Positions 9,685 through 21,352 of a stretch of DNA of 64,000 bases are shown here, one piece after another. Source of the DNA: Minisyncoccota bacterium (GTDB lineage: Bacteria > Patescibacteriota > Minisyncoccia > Phycocordibacterales > GWA1-40-21); NCBI GenBank assembly GCA_041664585.1, contig JBAYKL010000001.1, positions 123,384 through 187,383 on the forward strand, written 5' to 3'. The notes below the pieces were generated by a model. The model was not told the DNA's origin. It searched no databases and worked only from the letters and a program-made list of their open reading frames with translations. The position numbers and the translations under genes are program-made. Position 1 is the stretch's first letter; each line of letters opens with the position of its first letter.

Positions 9685-9720
9685 AAAAAAACAAAAACCG
9701 CGAGGGTCGAGTCCTCACGA
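9685..9720 (-). terminator. Intrinsic terminator for the 9748-10401 gene.
   Basis: CGTGAGGACTCGACCCTCGCG hairpin followed by a U-run on the minus strand. Confidence 0.5.
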
Positions 9721-9747
9721 TTTTCGTATCTTTATGTTTATTAATAA

Positions 9748-10401
9748 TTAATTAGAAGTCTGAAAAGCTCTAGGTAAGACCAAAGTTATGTTTCCAGAAT
9801 TATCTACCGCACGAATTAAATAATAATAAACAGTATTTGGTTGGAGATTCTGAATTGTTATTGATTGAGAATAACTAACACCAGAATTATTTGGGGCTAA
9901 AACACCACTAACATATGCCTGATCACCACGAAATGATGACTCGTTAGACTGAATCATCGTTGCATCATAATATAATTGTCCTCTAGCTGATTCGTTTGTT
10001 GACCAACTAATCGTTGCACTGTTACGACCAGATTGAATATTGATATTAGATATGCTTGGTGCATTAATATCCAGACCAAAGCCTGACAACATGATGTCAT
10101 TTATTTTTGAAGCTGTAATTGGACCGACAGTACCAACTTGTGAAATTCCGTAGTTTACTTGAAATTGTGTTACAGCATCTTTGGTTAATGCACCATAATA
10201 TCCACTGACAATTCCTTGGGGATATATAGAATTATTTGTTGCTAAAAACTGCTGAAGTTCTGTAACCTGAGATCCTTTTGATCCAAGTCCGAGCTGGCTA
10301 GTTATTGCTGCACTAACTGTTTGTGCTGTAAAGAATGATACCAAAAGAAGTATCGCTAAAACACCGACCGTAGAGAAACCGAGTATATTTATTTTTTTCA
10401 T
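9748..10401 (-). CDS. Secreted protein: signal peptide, peptidoglycan-binding domain (PG_binding_1-like) and fibronectin-III-like domain.
   Basis: Signal peptide, then GSKGSQVTELQQFL...GYYGALTKDAVTQFQ, then TISWSTNE...TVYYYLIRAVDNSGN. Confidence 0.65.
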   Translation of the reverse strand: MKKINILGFSTVGVLAILLLVSFFTAQTVSAAITSQLGLGSKGSQVTELQQFLATNNSIYPQGIVSGYYGALTKDAVTQFQVNYGISQVGTVGPITASKINDIMLSGFGLDINAPSISNINIQSGRNSATISWSTNESARGQLYYDATMIQSNESSFRGDQAYVSGVLAPNNSGVSYSQSITIQNLQPNTVYYYLIRAVDNSGNITLVLPRAFQTSN

Positions 10402-10500
10402 AGTATTTTTAAGATTAAATTCGAGTAATTATTGTTTGTGTAATCGACCTTTTTGTACATTTATGCCTCTATAATAGATGCCGTCTCAAAGAGAAAAATA

Positions 10501-11136
10501 TTACAATAGCTCCTTATCACTAAAAACCACAGTTCTATTTGAATAGTTTTTTAAAACCTTATTCCAAGTACCTCCACAAGTAATAAGATTTAAATGGGAA
10601 AGTCCATCAGTTGAATTAAATACATCTGAGGCATCATCCGTATATTTGTAATTTTTAATTTTACTTACAATAAAAATAGTTGTATTTTTATTTTCATCTT
10701 CAATATATATTTTATCTCCTATTTTTACCTTGCTCAAATTGTCAAAAACTCCAAGGGTATTATTCTTATAGCCAAAATGTCCCGCGATTACAGAACTACC
10801 TATTCCACCTGGAATTGTACCGAGCCTATACCATCCAACCTTGGTTGGATCCTTAGGCGACTCCATCTCACCAGTTAACGTAAGTCCAATGTACTCGAAA
10901 GAAGCATTAACACTAATTACTGGTATCGTAATATGTACGGGTAAATCTTTTTCTATTTGAACCATACTTACTTGTTCTATTTTTTTGATACCAAGCACAG
11001 ACGAAAGATCTCTGATAAGTTTAATCTTGTTATTATATTCCAGTGATTTAGAAAAAACAAAATTTAAAGACAACAAAATTATAATTCCCAAAACACTCAC
11101 TATTATTAATATTATTTTAAATATTTTCATTTTCAT
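10501..11136 (-). CDS. Sortase-family transpeptidase.
   Basis: N-terminal membrane anchor, catalytic His (VIAGH) and the LITCGG Cys motif. Confidence 0.8.
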   Translation of the reverse strand: MKMKIFKIILIIVSVLGIIILLSLNFVFSKSLEYNNKIKLIRDLSSVLGIKKIEQVSMVQIEKDLPVHITIPVISVNASFEYIGLTLTGEMESPKDPTKVGWYRLGTIPGGIGSSVIAGHFGYKNNTLGVFDNLSKVKIGDKIYIEDENKNTTIFIVSKIKNYKYTDDASDVFNSTDGLSHLNLITCGGTWNKVLKNYSNRTVVFSDKELL

Positions 11137-11206
11137 ATAAATTAAACATGAAATGACCCCGCCAAGGCGGAGCCATTTCCTGCCTCTAAATAAATTTAAT
11201 GAATAC

Positions 11207-12892
11207 TTATTCTAAGTGGGCTCTACTTATACCTGCAGCAATTCTTACTCTTTTAAGAATCCAAACAAGTGTGGTCGAAATTAAGGAGACAATTATGACC
11301 GCTATAATTATATTTAACGCCATATTGCCAGTTTCAGGAAATATCCCTGTATTTGGGAACCTTGGAGTAACTGCAAGGATAGGGCTGATTATCGCGGTAC
11401 TCGAAGAGATACTGACATTACCAATTGGTAGAGATACTGACCCCGTCGTAGACACAACTGGCGTAGAGGTAGTTGCGATGACAATCTGCCAGGGTTGGGC
11501 TATATCATTATTTATAATTGTACAAACCTTATTCTGATTAGTATCTAAAACCAAGACACCATTAACATCGCAATCCCCAGAAAAAGATTGGGTATAATTA
11601 GAATTAGAAATTTCTCTTATTGTATAACTAGAAGTACGGAAAGTTGTCGTCGCACCAGACGCGACTTGTGCATCATTAACAAATAATGGAAAGTCTGCAA
11701 CAATTTTTGTTCCTCCATCATCGTTTATAACCACTTTATTAACAGTAATAGTACCGTACCTTACAATTCTATGAGGAATGGCTGTGTTAGTGATTGTACA
11801 AGTTTTATTATCACCAGAAGAAAGAGTCACGCTACCATTAGCATTACAATCTCCACTAAAAGATTCATTATAATTTGTATTAGCATCTTCACTTACTGTA
11901 TATGTACCAGCGGAAAGAGTATATGGAGTACCTGGAGATCCAGCTCCAACTAAAGGACTTCCAGAGACATCTGCATTCAATGAATTTTTTACATGAAGCA
12001 TAAAATCTGATGGGGCAGCAACGCCACCACTAACGACTTTAATAACATTAAGAGTGGCTGGACCAGAACCAGAAATGCCAGAAACAGAATTAGCATCCAT
12101 CGTAACCTGTGTTTGTGACAAGGCTCTACCATTTAGAACAGCACCTGTTTGCATAACGATATCTGTTGCACTCAATATATTTCCGTTGAAGGTAGAATAT
12201 GTACCAAGGGTTGCTCCTGCGCCACCACCAACCTGCCAAAAAACGTTTGAGGCCAAAGCTCCTCCCGTTAGTATAACTTTTGCCCCAAGTGGAATACTTC
12301 CATATGATGGGACAATAAGGTTCCCTGCTATTTGAAATATCCAAACATCACTGGCGCCACCATTTAAAGTAACTTCATTTAATGTTGCTGTTCCATCTAT
12401 TAAAGAAACATTCGTAGTCCACTTATAAAGCCCTGGAGCAAAAGTTTGTCCTCCGATAAGTCCAGAATATAAATTTGTACCGTCTGGTAAAGCTCTCCCA
12501 GCTGCATCAGTATAAGCAGTTTCCATATTACTTATAGAAGTAGTCATATAAGAAGGGGTTGGCGCTGTATAATTAGCTGCGTATATTCTTCCTGTTACCA
12601 AAGCTGATGTAGAAAATGTGTTAGAAACATCCATAACCGGTCCAAAGCCAGTCATATAACTCGCTGCGGCCGGACTGATTCCAATGTTTCCGACAACGGT
12701 TGCGCTACCGGTATTCGTAATGGCTGTTTTCGCTAAAATAGAAAAACCTCCAGCTAAACCAAGATCTACAGAGGATGGTCCTAATGCCAATGTTGTTATT
12801 GGCCCCACGAGACCAAATACAGACGATATGGCTATTGTTGCTAATATTAATTTTTTATTAAACTTATTCATTTTTTTTATTATCTTATTCAT
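11207..12892 (-). CDS. Cell-surface protein with an N-terminal DUF3494/ice-binding-like domain, two tandem repeats of about 90 aa, and a C-terminal sortase sorting signal.
   Basis: Signal peptide. LGLAGGFSILAKTAITNTGSATVVGNIGISP is the DUF3494 hallmark. Repeats SFSGDCNANGSV...CTITN and SFSGDCDVNGVL...CTIIN. C-terminus FPNTGIFPETG, then a hydrophobic helix, then KRVR. Confidence 0.75.
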   Translation of the reverse strand: MNKIIKKMNKFNKKLILATIAISSVFGLVGPITTLALGPSSVDLGLAGGFSILAKTAITNTGSATVVGNIGISPAAASYMTGFGPVMDVSNTFSTSALVTGRIYAANYTAPTPSYMTTSISNMETAYTDAAGRALPDGTNLYSGLIGGQTFAPGLYKWTTNVSLIDGTATLNEVTLNGGASDVWIFQIAGNLIVPSYGSIPLGAKVILTGGALASNVFWQVGGGAGATLGTYSTFNGNILSATDIVMQTGAVLNGRALSQTQVTMDANSVSGISGSGPATLNVIKVVSGGVAAPSDFMLHVKNSLNADVSGSPLVGAGSPGTPYTLSAGTYTVSEDANTNYNESFSGDCNANGSVTLSSGDNKTCTITNTAIPHRIVRYGTITVNKVVINDDGGTKIVADFPLFVNDAQVASGATTTFRTSSYTIREISNSNYTQSFSGDCDVNGVLVLDTNQNKVCTIINNDIAQPWQIVIATTSTPVVSTTGSVSLPIGNVSISSSTAIISPILAVTPRFPNTGIFPETGNMALNIIIAVIIVSLISTTLVWILKRVRIAAGISRAHLE

Positions 12893-12930: not shown

Positions 12931-13236
12931 TTAAGATACTAGTTTCTTAACCTGTTTCTTCGCTTTCTTCGCATGAGATACTAAAACTGGAATCTCCTTC
13001 TTCACATTTTTGCTTGTTTTTTTAATATTCTTTACAAATAAAGCATACTCAGCCTTTCCCTTTTTCTCTAAATTCTTCATTTTTGGCTTTAAATACGCCT
13101 TGAGTTCTACAGATTTCTTTTTTATATCACTACGAAACTTTTTCCCTGATTCTGGAGCAAGAACAATACCAGCGGCTACACCAATAGCTGCTCCAACAAG
13201 CCCACTTCCAACCATTTTCAATTTATTATTTTTCAT
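12931..13236 (-). CDS. YtxH-like membrane protein.
   Basis: GAAIGVAAGIVLAPESGKKFR motif followed by a Lys-rich helical tail. Confidence 0.55.
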   Translation of the reverse strand: MKNNKLKMVGSGLVGAAIGVAAGIVLAPESGKKFRSDIKKKSVELKAYLKPKMKNLEKKGKAEYALFVKNIKKTSKNVKKEIPVLVSHAKKAKKQVKKLVS

Positions 13237-13255: not shown

Positions 13256-13519
13256 TTAAATTTTCTTATCTTCGTTTGAGTCACGCTTTCGTCTTCGCTT
13301 GGACGAAAATAAACGTTCTAATAATTTTGATACGTACTTAACAACCTCTATAGTTTTATCTAATACCCCGTCTGTTAATTCTTGAACTTTACGAGTTGTA
13401 TCTTTTATGTCTCTCATAACACAGATTGCTTGATATAAAAGAATAGAAAACAAAATTCCAACAACTATGATTGCGACTGAAATAGTGAAATAAAAAATGG
13501 TTTGTGAAAGAATAAACAT
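13256..13519 (-). CDS. Small membrane protein (DUF948-like), hypothetical.
   Basis: One N-terminal transmembrane helix plus a coiled, charged tail. Confidence 0.4.
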   Translation of the reverse strand: MFILSQTIFYFTISVAIIVVGILFSILLYQAICVMRDIKDTTRKVQELTDGVLDKTIEVVKYVSKLLERLFSSKRRRKRDSNEDKKI

Positions 13520-21276: not shown

Positions 21277-21352
21277 GGGCCCTTAGCTCATCTGGTAGAG
21301 CACCTCATTTGCAATGAGGGGGTGGCAGGTTCGAGTCCTGTAGGGTCCACCA
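21277..21352 (+). tRNA. tRNA-Ala (anticodon TGC).
   Basis: Cloverleaf folds by hand: acceptor GGGCCCU/AGGGUCC with the G3:U70 alanine identity pair, anticodon loop TTTGCAA, T-loop GGTTCGAGTCC, encoded CCA. Confidence 0.9.

What the first reader, a model, noticed from the sequence alone, without database searches (positions are those of the whole stretch)
9748..12892. Sortase with a cognate DUF3494 (ice-binding-like) surface protein bearing a non-canonical FPNTG/FPETG sorting signal
The 561-aa protein has the LG.AG.F..LA...ITNTG signature of DUF3494, followed by two internal repeats of about 90 aa (SFSGDC...CTI.N). It ends in FPNTGIFPETG, then a hydrophobic helix, then KRVR, which is the tripartite layout of a sortase substrate but with F/P in place of L/P. 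The adjacent gene is a sortase (H...LITCGG). Next to that is a peptidoglycan-binding plus Fn3 protein. Together they form a compact cell-surface display locus. The doubled pentapeptide may indicate alternative cleavage sites.
Basis: partly seen in the sequence, partly recalled or inferred. Interest (0 to 1): 0.5.

Follow-up and report, generated by a model that had tools for sequence, protein, structure and literature searches.

The report
Sortase-anchored DUF3494 surface protein, Patescibacteria

Summary
All three genes lie as described, on the minus strand of a Candidatus Paceibacterota contig. They are a 561-aa DUF3494 (ice-binding-like) protein with two prealbumin-like repeats, a 211-aa sortase, and a PG_binding_1+Fn3 protein.

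The sortase/substrate reading is well supported. In 55 of 74 evaluable related loci from other Patescibacteria, the gene just upstream of the sortase ends in [LF]Px[TA]G, a spacer, a membrane helix and basic residues. Of those 55 proteins, 48 carry DUF3494.

- **F at position 1 is not special.** It occurs in about 20% of family tails and is scattered among L-type pairs.
- **The second pentapeptide, FPETG, is probably not a second site.** It falls in register inside the family's conserved spacer (G-[FIL]-[AP]-P-[DE]-E-[KN]-N). A second motif-like pentapeptide occurs in only 5 of 131 tails.
- **The PG-binding/Fn3 gene is not a conserved partner.** It is kept in the closest relative but found downstream in only 3 of 61 scanned genes, the window's own included.

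The sortase scores best as class F, though below NCBIfam's cut-off, and NCBI already names both proteins. The locus is a new member of a known kind. The CPR-wide pairing of DUF3494 with this sortase is modestly new and was not found in the searched literature.

The parts
11207..12892 (-). Gene for the 561-aa sortase substrate: signal peptide, DUF3494 beta-solenoid, two prealbumin-like repeats, Thr/Ser/Val-rich linker and C-terminal sorting signal
   Evidence: ORF. Pfam PF11999 (E 4.9e-66) and PF19403. PDB ice-binding proteins down to E 1.1e-66. The identical protein is named 'ice-binding family protein' by NCBI.
12779..12892 (-). Predicted Sec signal peptide (residues 1-38, MNKIIKKMNKFNKKLILATIAISSVFGLVGPITTLALG/P)
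   Evidence: Read directly from the sequence: a basic n-region, a hydrophobic core and a small-residue c-region. It is 87% identical to the closest relative, while the passenger domain is only 50% identical. The cleavage site is inferred, not computed.
12083..12739 (-). DUF3494 / ice-binding-like domain (residues 52-270)
   Evidence: Pfam PF11999, 222.8 bits. NCBIfam IBP_CFB scores 174.9 bits, below its equivalog cut-off of 400. Solved DUF3494 structures 9lhs and 4nu3 match at E 1e-66 to 1e-59.
11777..12061 (-). Repeat 1, prealbumin-like (SpaA_2) domain, residues 278-372, with Cys349/Cys365
   Evidence: PF19403, E 1.6e-08. Repeat alignment. Cysteine positions.
11501..11758 (-). Repeat 2, a diverged copy of the same domain, residues 379-464, with Cys441/Cys457
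   Evidence: 38% identity to repeat 1, E 4e-17. Cysteine positions.
11360..11500 (-). Thr/Ser/Val/Ile-rich linker (residues 465-511), the presumed wall-spanning stalk, ending in the conserved Pro at position -2 (TPR)
   Evidence: Sequence. Pro at -2 is present in 47 of 55 operon-linked substrates.
11345..11359 (-). FPNTG (residues 512-516), the pentapeptide that aligns with the family's [LF]PN[TA]G and is the probable sortase cleavage site (between T and G)
   Evidence: Codons TTC CCA AAT ACA GGG read. Register shown in alignment A5. Consensus.
11327..11341 (-). FPETG (residues 518-522), a second pentapeptide look-alike lying in the conserved spacer (positions +6 to +10)
   Evidence: Searches place it in the spacer consensus G-[FIL]-[AP]-P-[DE]-E-[KN]-N. 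The canonical TIGR01167 anchor model aligns from here, so cleavage at this site cannot be excluded.
11255..11323 (-). Hydrophobic membrane-spanning segment of the sorting signal (residues 524-546)
   Evidence: Sequence. Matched by the tail profile and by TIGR01167.
11210..11254 (-). Basic stop-transfer residues KRVR (547-550) plus an unusually long 11-residue cytoplasmic extension, IAAGISRAHLE
   Evidence: Sequence. Most relatives end 2-5 residues after the basic cluster. The extension is conserved in the closest relative, P0054.
11150..11179 (-). Stable intercistronic hairpin between the substrate stop codon and the sortase start codon
   Evidence: 13-bp stem. Energy -24.6 kcal/mol, z -5.1, with 0 of 200 shuffles folding as well. 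It is present in relative L083 with a G-U to G-C change, and strong hairpins follow the substrate gene in about 24 of 55 related loci. A role in setting the substrate-to-sortase ratio is inferred.
10501..11136 (-). Gene for the 211-aa membrane-anchored sortase, class F-like. N-terminal helix at residues 3-29 (nt 11050..11130), catalytic domain at residues 61-207 (nt 10516..10956), with H120 (10777..10779), C187 (10576..10578) and R201 (10534..10536)
   Evidence: PF04203, E 5.3e-19. NF033748 class F scores 108.2 bits against 31.6 for the next class. Invariant H/C/R. AlphaFold2 model with pLDDT 84 and Foldseek matches to solved sortases at E about 1e-9. NCBI name 'class F sortase'.
9748..10401 (-). 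Gene for a secreted PG_binding_1 + Fn3 protein, probably co-transcribed in this lineage but not a conserved part of the cassette
   Evidence: Pfam. It is 92% identical and in the same position in the closest relative. PG_binding_1 occurs downstream in only 3 of 61 scanned genes, the window's own included.
9691..9727 (-). Terminator-like hairpin (15 bp stem followed by a T-run) closing the transcription unit after the PG_binding/Fn3 gene

Best explanation
This is a sortase-dependent surface-display cassette of a Patescibacteria (Paceibacterota) cell.

Proposed mechanism, step by step:
1. The 561-aa precursor is exported by Sec through its N-terminal signal peptide (inferred).
2. It is held in the membrane by its C-terminal helix and the KRVR stop-transfer residues (inferred from the tripartite layout).
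3. The adjacent membrane-anchored, class F-like sortase (catalytic residues His120, Cys187, Arg201) cleaves it, most probably between T515 and G516 of FPNTG, forming a thioacyl intermediate.
4. The intermediate is resolved by an amine of a peptidoglycan precursor, so the protein becomes covalently linked to the wall. This follows the established sortase mechanism and was not tested here.

The result would be an N-terminal DUF3494 beta-solenoid held away from the wall on two disulfide-containing prealbumin-like domains and a Thr/Ser-rich stalk. The DUF3494 head most likely acts as a binding or adhesion module, for a partner cell, a surface or ice. This is the least certain step.

F at position 1 is a tolerated variant of L in this sortase clade. 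The second FPETG is part of the conserved spacer, not a designed second site.
For: Shown here:
- Domain identities are established.
- The catalytic triad is invariant, and the sortase fold is confirmed, with a predicted N-terminal helix at residues 3-29.
- Class F is the best-scoring class by 77 bits for this protein and is matched by all 29 homologues, with by far the best E-value of any class (1.3e-40 against 2.2e-14 for class C).
- At least 591 relatives of the sortase occur in GTDB species genomes. The best 80 loci are nearly all titled as Patescibacteria or unclassified 'bacterium' MAGs; two carry a Gammaproteobacteria label.
- In 55 of 74 evaluable loci, a same-strand gene ending less than 800 bp upstream of the sortase ends in [LF]Px[TA]G + spacer + TM + basic residues. 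About 10 more carry the motif but fail the strict filter.
- 48 of those 55 substrates carry PF11999, as do all 10 additional LPxTG genes scanned from those loci, most of them a second gene upstream of the sortase.
- A profile built from tails alone finds 241 representatives among 1.84 billion proteins. Of the 82 that are at least 240 aa long, 59 carry PF11999.
- The window's tail aligns in register with this family, FPNTG on LPNTG.
- F/L usage is 26/104 of 131 tails, and F-type pairs are interspersed among L-type ones.
- The window also encodes D-Ala-D-Ala ligase and YceG/MltG, so peptidoglycan precursors are expected.

From the literature: a sortase family is present in more than half of CPR genomes, and their envelope is considered Gram-positive-like (PMC6744442).
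Against: - There is no biochemical evidence for cleavage, for the cleavage site or for the wall acceptor in any CPR organism.
- The sortase scores below NCBIfam's class F cut-off (108 against 166 bits).
- Pfam's Gram_pos_anchor model does not hit the tail.
- TIGR01167 hits marginally (16.4 against 15.9 bits) and aligns from the second pentapeptide, which sits at the canonical distance from the helix.
- Only this one tail is visible in the 64 kb window, and the rest of the genome was not examined.
- The function of the DUF3494 head is not established. It scores far below the ice-binding equivalog cut-off.
Confidence: 0.8

Rival explanations
1. The two pentapeptides, FPNTG and FPETG, are both functional and give alternative cleavage and anchoring sites.
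For: - Both fit [LF]PxTG.
- The second sits at the distance from the helix that the canonical LPXTG_anchor model expects, and TIGR01167 aligns from it.
- The doublet is kept in the closest relative, P0054.
Against: - FPETG lies in register with the conserved spacer. P at +7 and E at +8 are consensus residues; T at +9 and G at +10 are minority residues.
- Only 5 of 131 tails have any second motif-like pentapeptide: P0001 and P0054, plus three with FPP[AT]G.
- The whole tail is 85% conserved between P0001 and P0054, so keeping the doublet is not independent evidence.
- The conserved Pro at -2 precedes only the first motif.
Confidence: 0.1
2. The sortase polymerises the DUF3494 / prealbumin-like protein into a covalent fibre, a pilus-like structure, rather than or before anchoring it to the wall.
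For: - The substrate carries SpaA_2 prealbumin-like domains, as Gram-positive pilins do.
- Foldseek's top structural matches are class C pilus sortases, though by a small margin.
- Several related loci carry two tandem DUF3494-LPxTG genes before one sortase.
Against: - The class C HMM scores only 31.6 bits against 108 for class F.
- No YPKN-type pilin motif is visible around the lysines of the substrate (by inspection).
- The region between the membrane helix and the barrel is unconserved and of low confidence, with no DP[FWY]-type lid (by inspection).
- This window has a single substrate gene.
- The repeats carry Cys pairs rather than recognisable isopeptide signatures.
Confidence: 0.06
3. 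The displayed DUF3494 head is a true ice-binding module, so the locus is a cold or ice adaptation: an ice adhesin covalently fixed to the wall.
For: - There is strong similarity to solved, active ice-binding proteins (E 1e-59 to 1e-39 for 4nu3, 3uyu, 3wp9 and others).
- The architecture of a DUF3494 domain plus tandem beta-sandwich domains plus a surface anchor parallels the Shewanella frigidimarina ice adhesin (6bg8 hit at E 1.7e-21; cited in PMC11645318).
Against: - It scores below the IBP equivalog cut-off (174.9 against 400).
- The cassette occurs in Patescibacteria MAGs from aquifer, peat, fen and lake samples, judging from record titles. It is therefore lineage-wide rather than tied to icy habitats.
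- DUF3494 membership alone does not establish ice binding (my knowledge of the family literature, Vance et al. 2019, not read here).
Confidence: 0.15
4. The tail is only a C-terminal membrane anchor, and the neighbouring sortase acts on other proteins elsewhere in the genome.
For: - No cleavage data exist.
- Pfam's Gram_pos_anchor model is silent on this tail.
Against: - Gene order and adjacency are conserved across dozens of divergent species.
- P and G of the pentapeptide are invariant, and T is nearly so.
- Tail and sortase co-occur in the closest relative while the passenger domain diverges.
Confidence: 0.04

Closest known systems
Class F sortases (NCBIfam NF033748; biochemically characterised example: Cutibacterium/Propionibacterium acnes SrtF, from my own knowledge)
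   Same: - Best-scoring class for this protein and, by best E-value, for the 29 homologues.
- N-terminal membrane helix and a His-Cys-Arg triad.
- An LPxTG-type signal.
- NCBI's pipeline already labels the identical protein 'class F sortase'.
   Different: - It scores 108 bits against the curated cut-off of 166, so it is a divergent CPR clade.
- Its linked substrates use L or F at position 1, strongly prefer N at position 3, and have a longer, conserved spacer before the helix.
Staphylococcus aureus SrtA / protein A LPETG cell-wall sorting paradigm (TIGR01167, PF00746)
   Same: - Tripartite signal of pentapeptide, hydrophobic helix and basic residues.
- Presumed cleavage between T and G and transfer to a peptidoglycan precursor.
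   Different: - F replaces L.
- About 10-11 residues separate G from the helix in the family, so the canonical models miss or mis-register the motif.
- The enzyme is only remotely similar to class A sortases (E 7e-5).
- The enzyme and its substrate are operon-linked rather than the enzyme being a housekeeping one.
Shewanella frigidimarina SfIBP_1 ice adhesin (PDB 6BG8), a DUF3494 domain plus tandem Ig-like domains on the cell surface
   Same: - A DUF3494 head followed by tandem beta-sandwich domains and a surface anchor.
- The DUF3494 domains are homologous (E 1.7e-21).
   Different: - The anchor type and envelope differ: a sortase signal on a Gram-positive-like CPR wall, against a Gram-negative surface (from my own knowledge, a lipoprotein-type anchor).
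- The beta-sandwich domains are SpaA_2/prealbumin-like, not Big.
- Ice binding is untested here.
Dedicated sortase/target pairs, for example class GN 'marine' sortase TIGR03784 with its single operon-linked target
   Same: - One sortase gene lies next to one (sometimes two) cognate target genes, with a family-specific variant of the signal.
- 25 of 29 homologues give weak TIGR03784 hits.
   Different: - A different sortase clade, a different cargo family and a different motif.
- Here the cargo family is DUF3494 in 48 of 55 pairs.
Gram-positive pilus loci (class C sortase plus SpaA-type pilins)
   Same: - Prealbumin-like domains in the substrate.
- The substrate gene or genes lie immediately upstream of the sortase.
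- Class C structures are the top Foldseek matches.
   Different: - No lid motif and no pilin motif were seen.
- The class C HMM score is weak (31.6 bits).
- This window has a single substrate gene.

Membership tests
Sortase superfamily (Pfam PF04203, peptidase C60) | HMM score above Pfam's gathering threshold | tested here: met
   68.6 bits against a cut-off of 26.6, E 5.3e-19
Sortase superfamily (Pfam PF04203, peptidase C60) | Catalytic His, Cys (TLxTC-type) and Arg present and conserved | tested here: met
   H120, C187 (LNLITCGG) and R201 are invariant in 29 homologues
Sortase superfamily (Pfam PF04203, peptidase C60) | Eight-stranded beta-barrel sortase fold with a membrane anchor | tested here: met
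   AlphaFold2 model with pLDDT 84 and a helix at residues 3-29. 114 PDB matches at E <= 0.001; all 50 listed matches are sortases.
Sortase superfamily (Pfam PF04203, peptidase C60) | Transpeptidase activity on its sorting signal | not testable with these tools
   Needs enzyme assays
Class F sortase (NCBIfam NF033748) | Score at or above the curated cut-off (166 bits) | tested here: not met
   108.2 bits. It is still the best class by 77 bits, and class F has by far the best E-value among the classes for the 29 homologues. NCBI nevertheless names the identical protein class F sortase.
Class C (pilus-polymerising) sortase (NF033745) | HMM cut-off of 160 bits, and a lid with a DP[FWY]-type motif over the active site | tested here: not met
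   31.6 bits. No conserved lid motif lies between the helix and the first barrel strand, and residues 31-55 are unconserved with pLDDT below 50 (by inspection).
LPXTG cell-wall sorting signal (TIGR01167 / PF00746) | Tripartite C-terminus: pentapeptide, hydrophobic helix, basic residues | tested here: met
   FPNTG (512-516), helix (524-546) and KRVR (547-550)
LPXTG cell-wall sorting signal (TIGR01167 / PF00746) | Match to the curated anchor models | tested here: inconclusive
   TIGR01167 scores 16.4 bits against a cut-off of 15.9 on the isolated tail, but aligns from the second pentapeptide. PF00746 gives no hit. Neither model reported a hit at E <= 0.01 on the full protein.
LPXTG cell-wall sorting signal (TIGR01167 / PF00746) | Leu at position 1 of the pentapeptide | tested here: not met
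   The residue is Phe. Within the CPR family, F occurs in 26 of 131 tails.
LPXTG cell-wall sorting signal (TIGR01167 / PF00746) | A cognate sortase encoded in the genome | tested here: met
   An adjacent gene 70 bp downstream. The adjacency is conserved in 55 of 74 related loci.
DUF3494 / Ice_binding (PF11999) | HMM score above the gathering threshold across the whole domain | tested here: met
   222.8 bits against 28.7, profile positions 1-207 of 208
Ice-binding protein, functional equivalog (NF045625 IBP_CFB) | Equivalog cut-off (400 bits) and ice-binding activity | tested here: not met
   174.9 bits. Activity cannot be tested here.
SpaA_2 prealbumin-like domain (PF19403) | HMM score above the gathering threshold | tested here: met
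   35.5 bits against 25 for repeat 1. Repeat 2 is recognised only through its 38% identity to repeat 1.

The most novel reading that the evidence does not exclude
The DUF3494-[LF]PNTG protein plus its dedicated class F-like sortase could be a Patescibacteria-wide surface organelle, possibly the main wall-anchored adhesin for attachment to hosts or surfaces.

In this reading the module has its own extended sorting signal (P-x-[LF]-P-N-[TA]-G-[FIL]-[AP]-P-[DE]-E-x-N-x-P-W-N). The exposed head would evolve fast and so help set partner specificity. Between the two closest relatives the head is 50% identical, against 85-92% for the signals and the flanking genes.

The genomic association itself is shown here. 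The adhesin and host-range role is speculation.
Probability: 0.2. Interest if true: 0.65.

Novelty: new member of a known kind. Interest (0 to 1): 0.3.

Why it matters
For this window, the result removes an apparent oddity. FPNTG is a normal variant, the doubled motif is a spacer coincidence, and both genes are already named correctly by standard annotation.

The wider observation could be useful. In Patescibacteria the class F-like sortase is overwhelmingly paired with DUF3494 cargo carrying a conserved, extended signal that canonical LPXTG models mis-register. This gives three things:
- a simple rule for finding wall-anchored proteins in CPR genomes;
- a concrete candidate for surface or host attachment in organisms with few known adhesins;
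- a caution that 'ice-binding family protein' annotations in these genomes probably do not indicate cold adaptation.

Tried and rejected
- **Tail-only profile (A5) in the word-indexed protein search.** It returned one 67-aa hit, which was uninformative.
- **A5 in the exhaustive representative search.** The search was repeated with tails taken only from earlier protein hits (A6), and that worked.
- **Literature search for the closest PDB codes (9LHS and others).** It returned only unrelated materials-science papers.
- **The 2026 preprint on a novel CPR pilus (PamA/B).** It concerns donor-strand-exchange pili and mentions sortase only in passing, so it has no link to this locus.
- **Searches for DUF3494 together with sortase or LPXTG.** No paper in the library holds both terms.
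- **Specificity-determining sortase residues.** None of the sortase alignment columns tracks F-type against L-type substrates.
- **The downstream PG_binding_1/Fn3 gene as a conserved third component.** This was rejected.
- **Structural subclassing by Foldseek.** Classes C, A, D and E all score within two orders of magnitude of each other, and no class F structure was evident among the hits.
- **A strict regex for other TLxTC motifs in the window.** It was too narrow and missed even the known sortase. It was replaced by an HMM search of all ORFs.
- **Genome-wide substrate enumeration.** This could not be done. Only 64 kb of the 291,888-bp contig is held, and the other contigs are not available.


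Full report
**What is in the sequence**

The window is low-GC DNA (about 33%). It comes from a 291,888-bp metagenomic contig assigned by NCBI to Candidatus Paceibacterota, part of the Patescibacteria/CPR.

| ORF (window, minus strand) | Length | Main matches |
|---|---|---|
| 11207..12892 | 561 aa | Pfam Ice_binding/DUF3494, residues 52-270 (E 4.9e-66); SpaA_2 prealbumin-like domain, residues 278-367; solved DUF3494 and ice-binding structures down to E 1e-66 |
| 10501..11136 | 211 aa | Sortase PF04203 (E 5.3e-19) |
| 9748..10401 | 217 aa | PG_binding_1 plus fn3 |

The two repeats of about 90 aa are real. They share 38% identity (E 4e-17), and each carries a Cys pair.

The C-terminus of the 561-aa protein reads TPR-FPNTG-I-FPETG-N, then a 23-residue hydrophobic segment, then KRVR, then 11 further residues.

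**The sortase**

- His120, Cys187 (LNLITCGG) and Arg201 are invariant in an alignment of 29 homologues.
- An AlphaFold2 model (mean pLDDT 84) shows an N-terminal helix at residues 3-29, a disordered linker and a beta-barrel.
- Foldseek matches solved sortases of classes C, A, D and E at E about 1e-9 to 1e-7, without clear discrimination between them.
- Among NCBIfam class models, class F is best by a wide margin: 108.2 bits against 31.6 for class C. The score is still below the curated cut-off of 166.
- All 29 homologues match class F, with by far the best E-value of any class.
- NCBI names the identical protein 'class F sortase'.

I call it class F-like, a divergent CPR clade.

**Is the neighbour its substrate?**

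A scan of one genome per GTDB species found at least 591 relatives of this sortase. The best 80 loci are nearly all titled as Patescibacteria or unclassified 'bacterium' MAGs; two carry a Gammaproteobacteria label.

- In 55 of 74 evaluable loci, a same-strand gene ending less than 800 bp upstream of the sortase (often less than 100 bp) ends in [LF]Px[TA]G, a polar spacer, a hydrophobic helix and a basic cluster.
- About ten more loci carry the motif but failed my strict helix/basic filter.
- 48 of the 55 substrates carry PF11999, 36 carry DUF7507 and 18 carry SpaA_2.
- All 10 additional LPxTG genes scanned from these loci, most of them a second gene upstream of the sortase, also carry DUF3494.

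As an independent check, a 44-position profile built from tails alone was run against 1.84 billion representative proteins. It found 241 hits at E <= 0.001. Of the 82 hits at least 240 aa long, 59 carry PF11999. The others carry assorted beta-helix, propeller or Ig-like passenger domains.

Within the window there is exactly one sortase (E 8e-86) and one such tail (E 9e-14, next best 0.54).

The pairing of DUF3494 cargo with this sortase clade is therefore a conserved cassette, not a coincidence of this locus.

**The 'non-canonical' motif**

The operon-linked substrates give this extended consensus:

P-[KG]-[LF]-P-N-[TA]-G-[FIL]-[AP]-P-[DE]-E-[KN]-N-x-P-W-N-I-I-I

- Position 1 is L in 46 and F in 9 of the 55 substrates. 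Over all 131 family tails it is L 104, F 26 and M 1.
- Sortases paired with F-type substrates have L-type pairs as their nearest neighbours, and no sortase alignment column tracks the difference.
- F is thus a frequent, apparently neutral alternative to L. The two differ by a single nucleotide change.

**The doubled pentapeptide**

- In alignment A5 the window's FPNTG aligns with the family's LPNTG and is preceded by the conserved Pro at -2.
- I-F-P-E-T-G-N occupies spacer positions +5 to +11. There the consensus already has P at +7, D/E at +8 and N at +11.
- A second motif-like pentapeptide occurs in only 5 of 131 tails: this protein, its close relative P0054, and three proteins with FPP[AT]G.
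- I therefore read FPETG as a by-product of the spacer.

One caveat applies. The canonical LPXTG_anchor model TIGR01167 scores the isolated tail at 16.4 bits (cut-off 15.9) and aligns from the second pentapeptide. The CPR spacer is longer than the canonical one, so the second pentapeptide sits at the 'usual' distance from the helix. Pfam's Gram_pos_anchor model does not hit the tail at all. Cleavage at the second site cannot be excluded without biochemistry.

**The third gene and the operon**

The PG_binding_1/Fn3 gene is kept, 92% identical and in the same place, in the closest relative, which shows the order YtxH, DUF3494, sortase, PG_binding/Fn3. Across the wider family, PG_binding_1 lies downstream in only 3 of the 61 scanned downstream genes, the window's own included. 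It is a lineage-specific neighbour, not part of the conserved cassette.

PG_binding_1 does recur in the system in other ways. Some DUF3494 homologues end in PG_binding_1 instead of a sorting signal, and two sortase homologues are fused to it. This fits a wall-associated context.

- A stable hairpin (-24.6 kcal/mol, z -5.1) lies between the substrate stop codon and the sortase start codon.
- The hairpin is conserved in the closest relative, and similar hairpins follow the substrate gene in roughly 24 of 55 related loci.
- A strong terminator-like hairpin follows the PG_binding gene.
- I infer one transcription unit with attenuated read-through into the sortase gene. This is untested.

**Mechanism**

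Steps 1 to 4 rest on the established sortase pathway applied to the features shown above. None was tested here.

1. Sec exports the precursor through its signal peptide.
2. The C-terminal helix and KRVR retain it in the membrane.
3. Cys187 of the sortase cleaves between T and G.
4. The acyl-enzyme is resolved by an amine of a peptidoglycan precursor.

The window encodes D-Ala-D-Ala ligase and YceG/MltG. The literature regards CPR envelopes as Gram-positive-like and finds a sortase family in more than half of CPR genomes (PMC6744442).

The function of the displayed DUF3494 head is the weakest link. It is homologous to active ice-binding proteins but scores far below the equivalog cut-off. The cassette also occurs in MAGs from aquifers, peat, fen and lakes, judging by record titles. 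I favour a general binding or adhesion role over ice binding.

Between this locus and its closest relative, identities are as follows:

| Element | Identity |
|---|---|
| PG_binding/Fn3 protein | 92% |
| YtxH (flanking gene) | 88% |
| Substrate signal peptide | 87% |
| Substrate sorting tail | 85% |
| DUF948-like 87-aa protein (flanking gene) | 82% |
| Sortase | 68% |
| Substrate repeat | 62% |
| Substrate DUF3494 head | 50% |

This is the pattern expected for an exposed, fast-evolving surface module. It rests on a single pair of sequences.

**Comparison with what is known**

In kind, this is an ordinary sortase/sorting-signal system. The nearest comparators are:
- class F sortases;
- the SrtA/LPETG paradigm;
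- dedicated sortase/target pairs;
- for the cargo architecture, the Shewanella DUF3494 ice adhesin.

No paper in the searchable library mentions DUF3494 together with sortase or LPXTG. The CPR-wide pairing and the extended signal therefore appear undescribed there, although automated annotation already names both proteins.

**Verdict**

The locus is real, correctly recognised in outline and ordinary in kind. The features that made it look unusual dissolve on comparison. Interest is 0.3, and it is a new member of a known kind.

Noticed in passing
L043, L058, L076, L078, L012, L073, L005 (genes just upstream of the sortase); proteins P0073, P0094, P0086, P0110, P0118: A subset of sortase-linked DUF3494 proteins keep [LF]PxTG and the spacer but lack a membrane helix and basic tail. 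They end either in short amphipathic tails (...W..IIK..SFFSF) or in Cys-containing tails (FW.LITQKSQ.C.Y.K..). These could be assembly errors or a different retention mode.
   Followed up: no
Proteins P0036, P0047, P0053, P0068, P0104, P0107, P0109; sortase homologues P0164, P0234: Some Patescibacteria DUF3494 homologues end in a PG_binding_1 domain instead of a sortase signal, and two sortase homologues are fused to PG_binding_1. This suggests that non-covalent and covalent wall attachment are interchangeable in this family.
   Followed up: partly
window 11150..11179 (- strand); L083 2253..2369: A conserved, very stable hairpin (-24.6 kcal/mol, z -5.1) lies between the substrate and sortase genes. 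Similar hairpins follow the substrate gene in about 24 of 55 related loci. It may attenuate transcription to set the substrate-to-enzyme ratio.
   Followed up: partly
window 11207..12892 compared with L083 796..2253: Between the two closest relatives the signal peptide (87%) and sorting tail (85%) are far more conserved than the DUF3494 head (50%), while flanking genes are 82-92% identical. This points to fast evolution or replacement of the exposed domain.
   Followed up: partly
window 11210..11242 (residues 551-561): An 11-residue extension (IAAGISRAHLE) follows the basic stop-transfer cluster. It is conserved in P0054 but absent from most relatives, which end 2-5 residues after the basic residues.
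   Followed up: no
window 12931..13236 and 13256..13519 (- strand): Small YtxH-like (PF12732) and DUF948-like membrane proteins lie directly upstream of the substrate gene, 38 bp away. They are kept in the same order in the closest relative (88% and 82% identity). They may belong to the same envelope-related transcription unit.
   Followed up: partly
L017, L026, L033, L036, L039, L041, L048, L070: Several related loci carry two tandem DUF3494-[LF]PxTG paralogues, one short (about 320-420 aa) and one long, upstream of a single sortase.
   Followed up: partly
window 21277..21352 (+): The only RNA gene detected in the 64 kb window is a tRNA-Ala(TGC). No Rfam family other than tRNA reached its gathering score.
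   Followed up: yes
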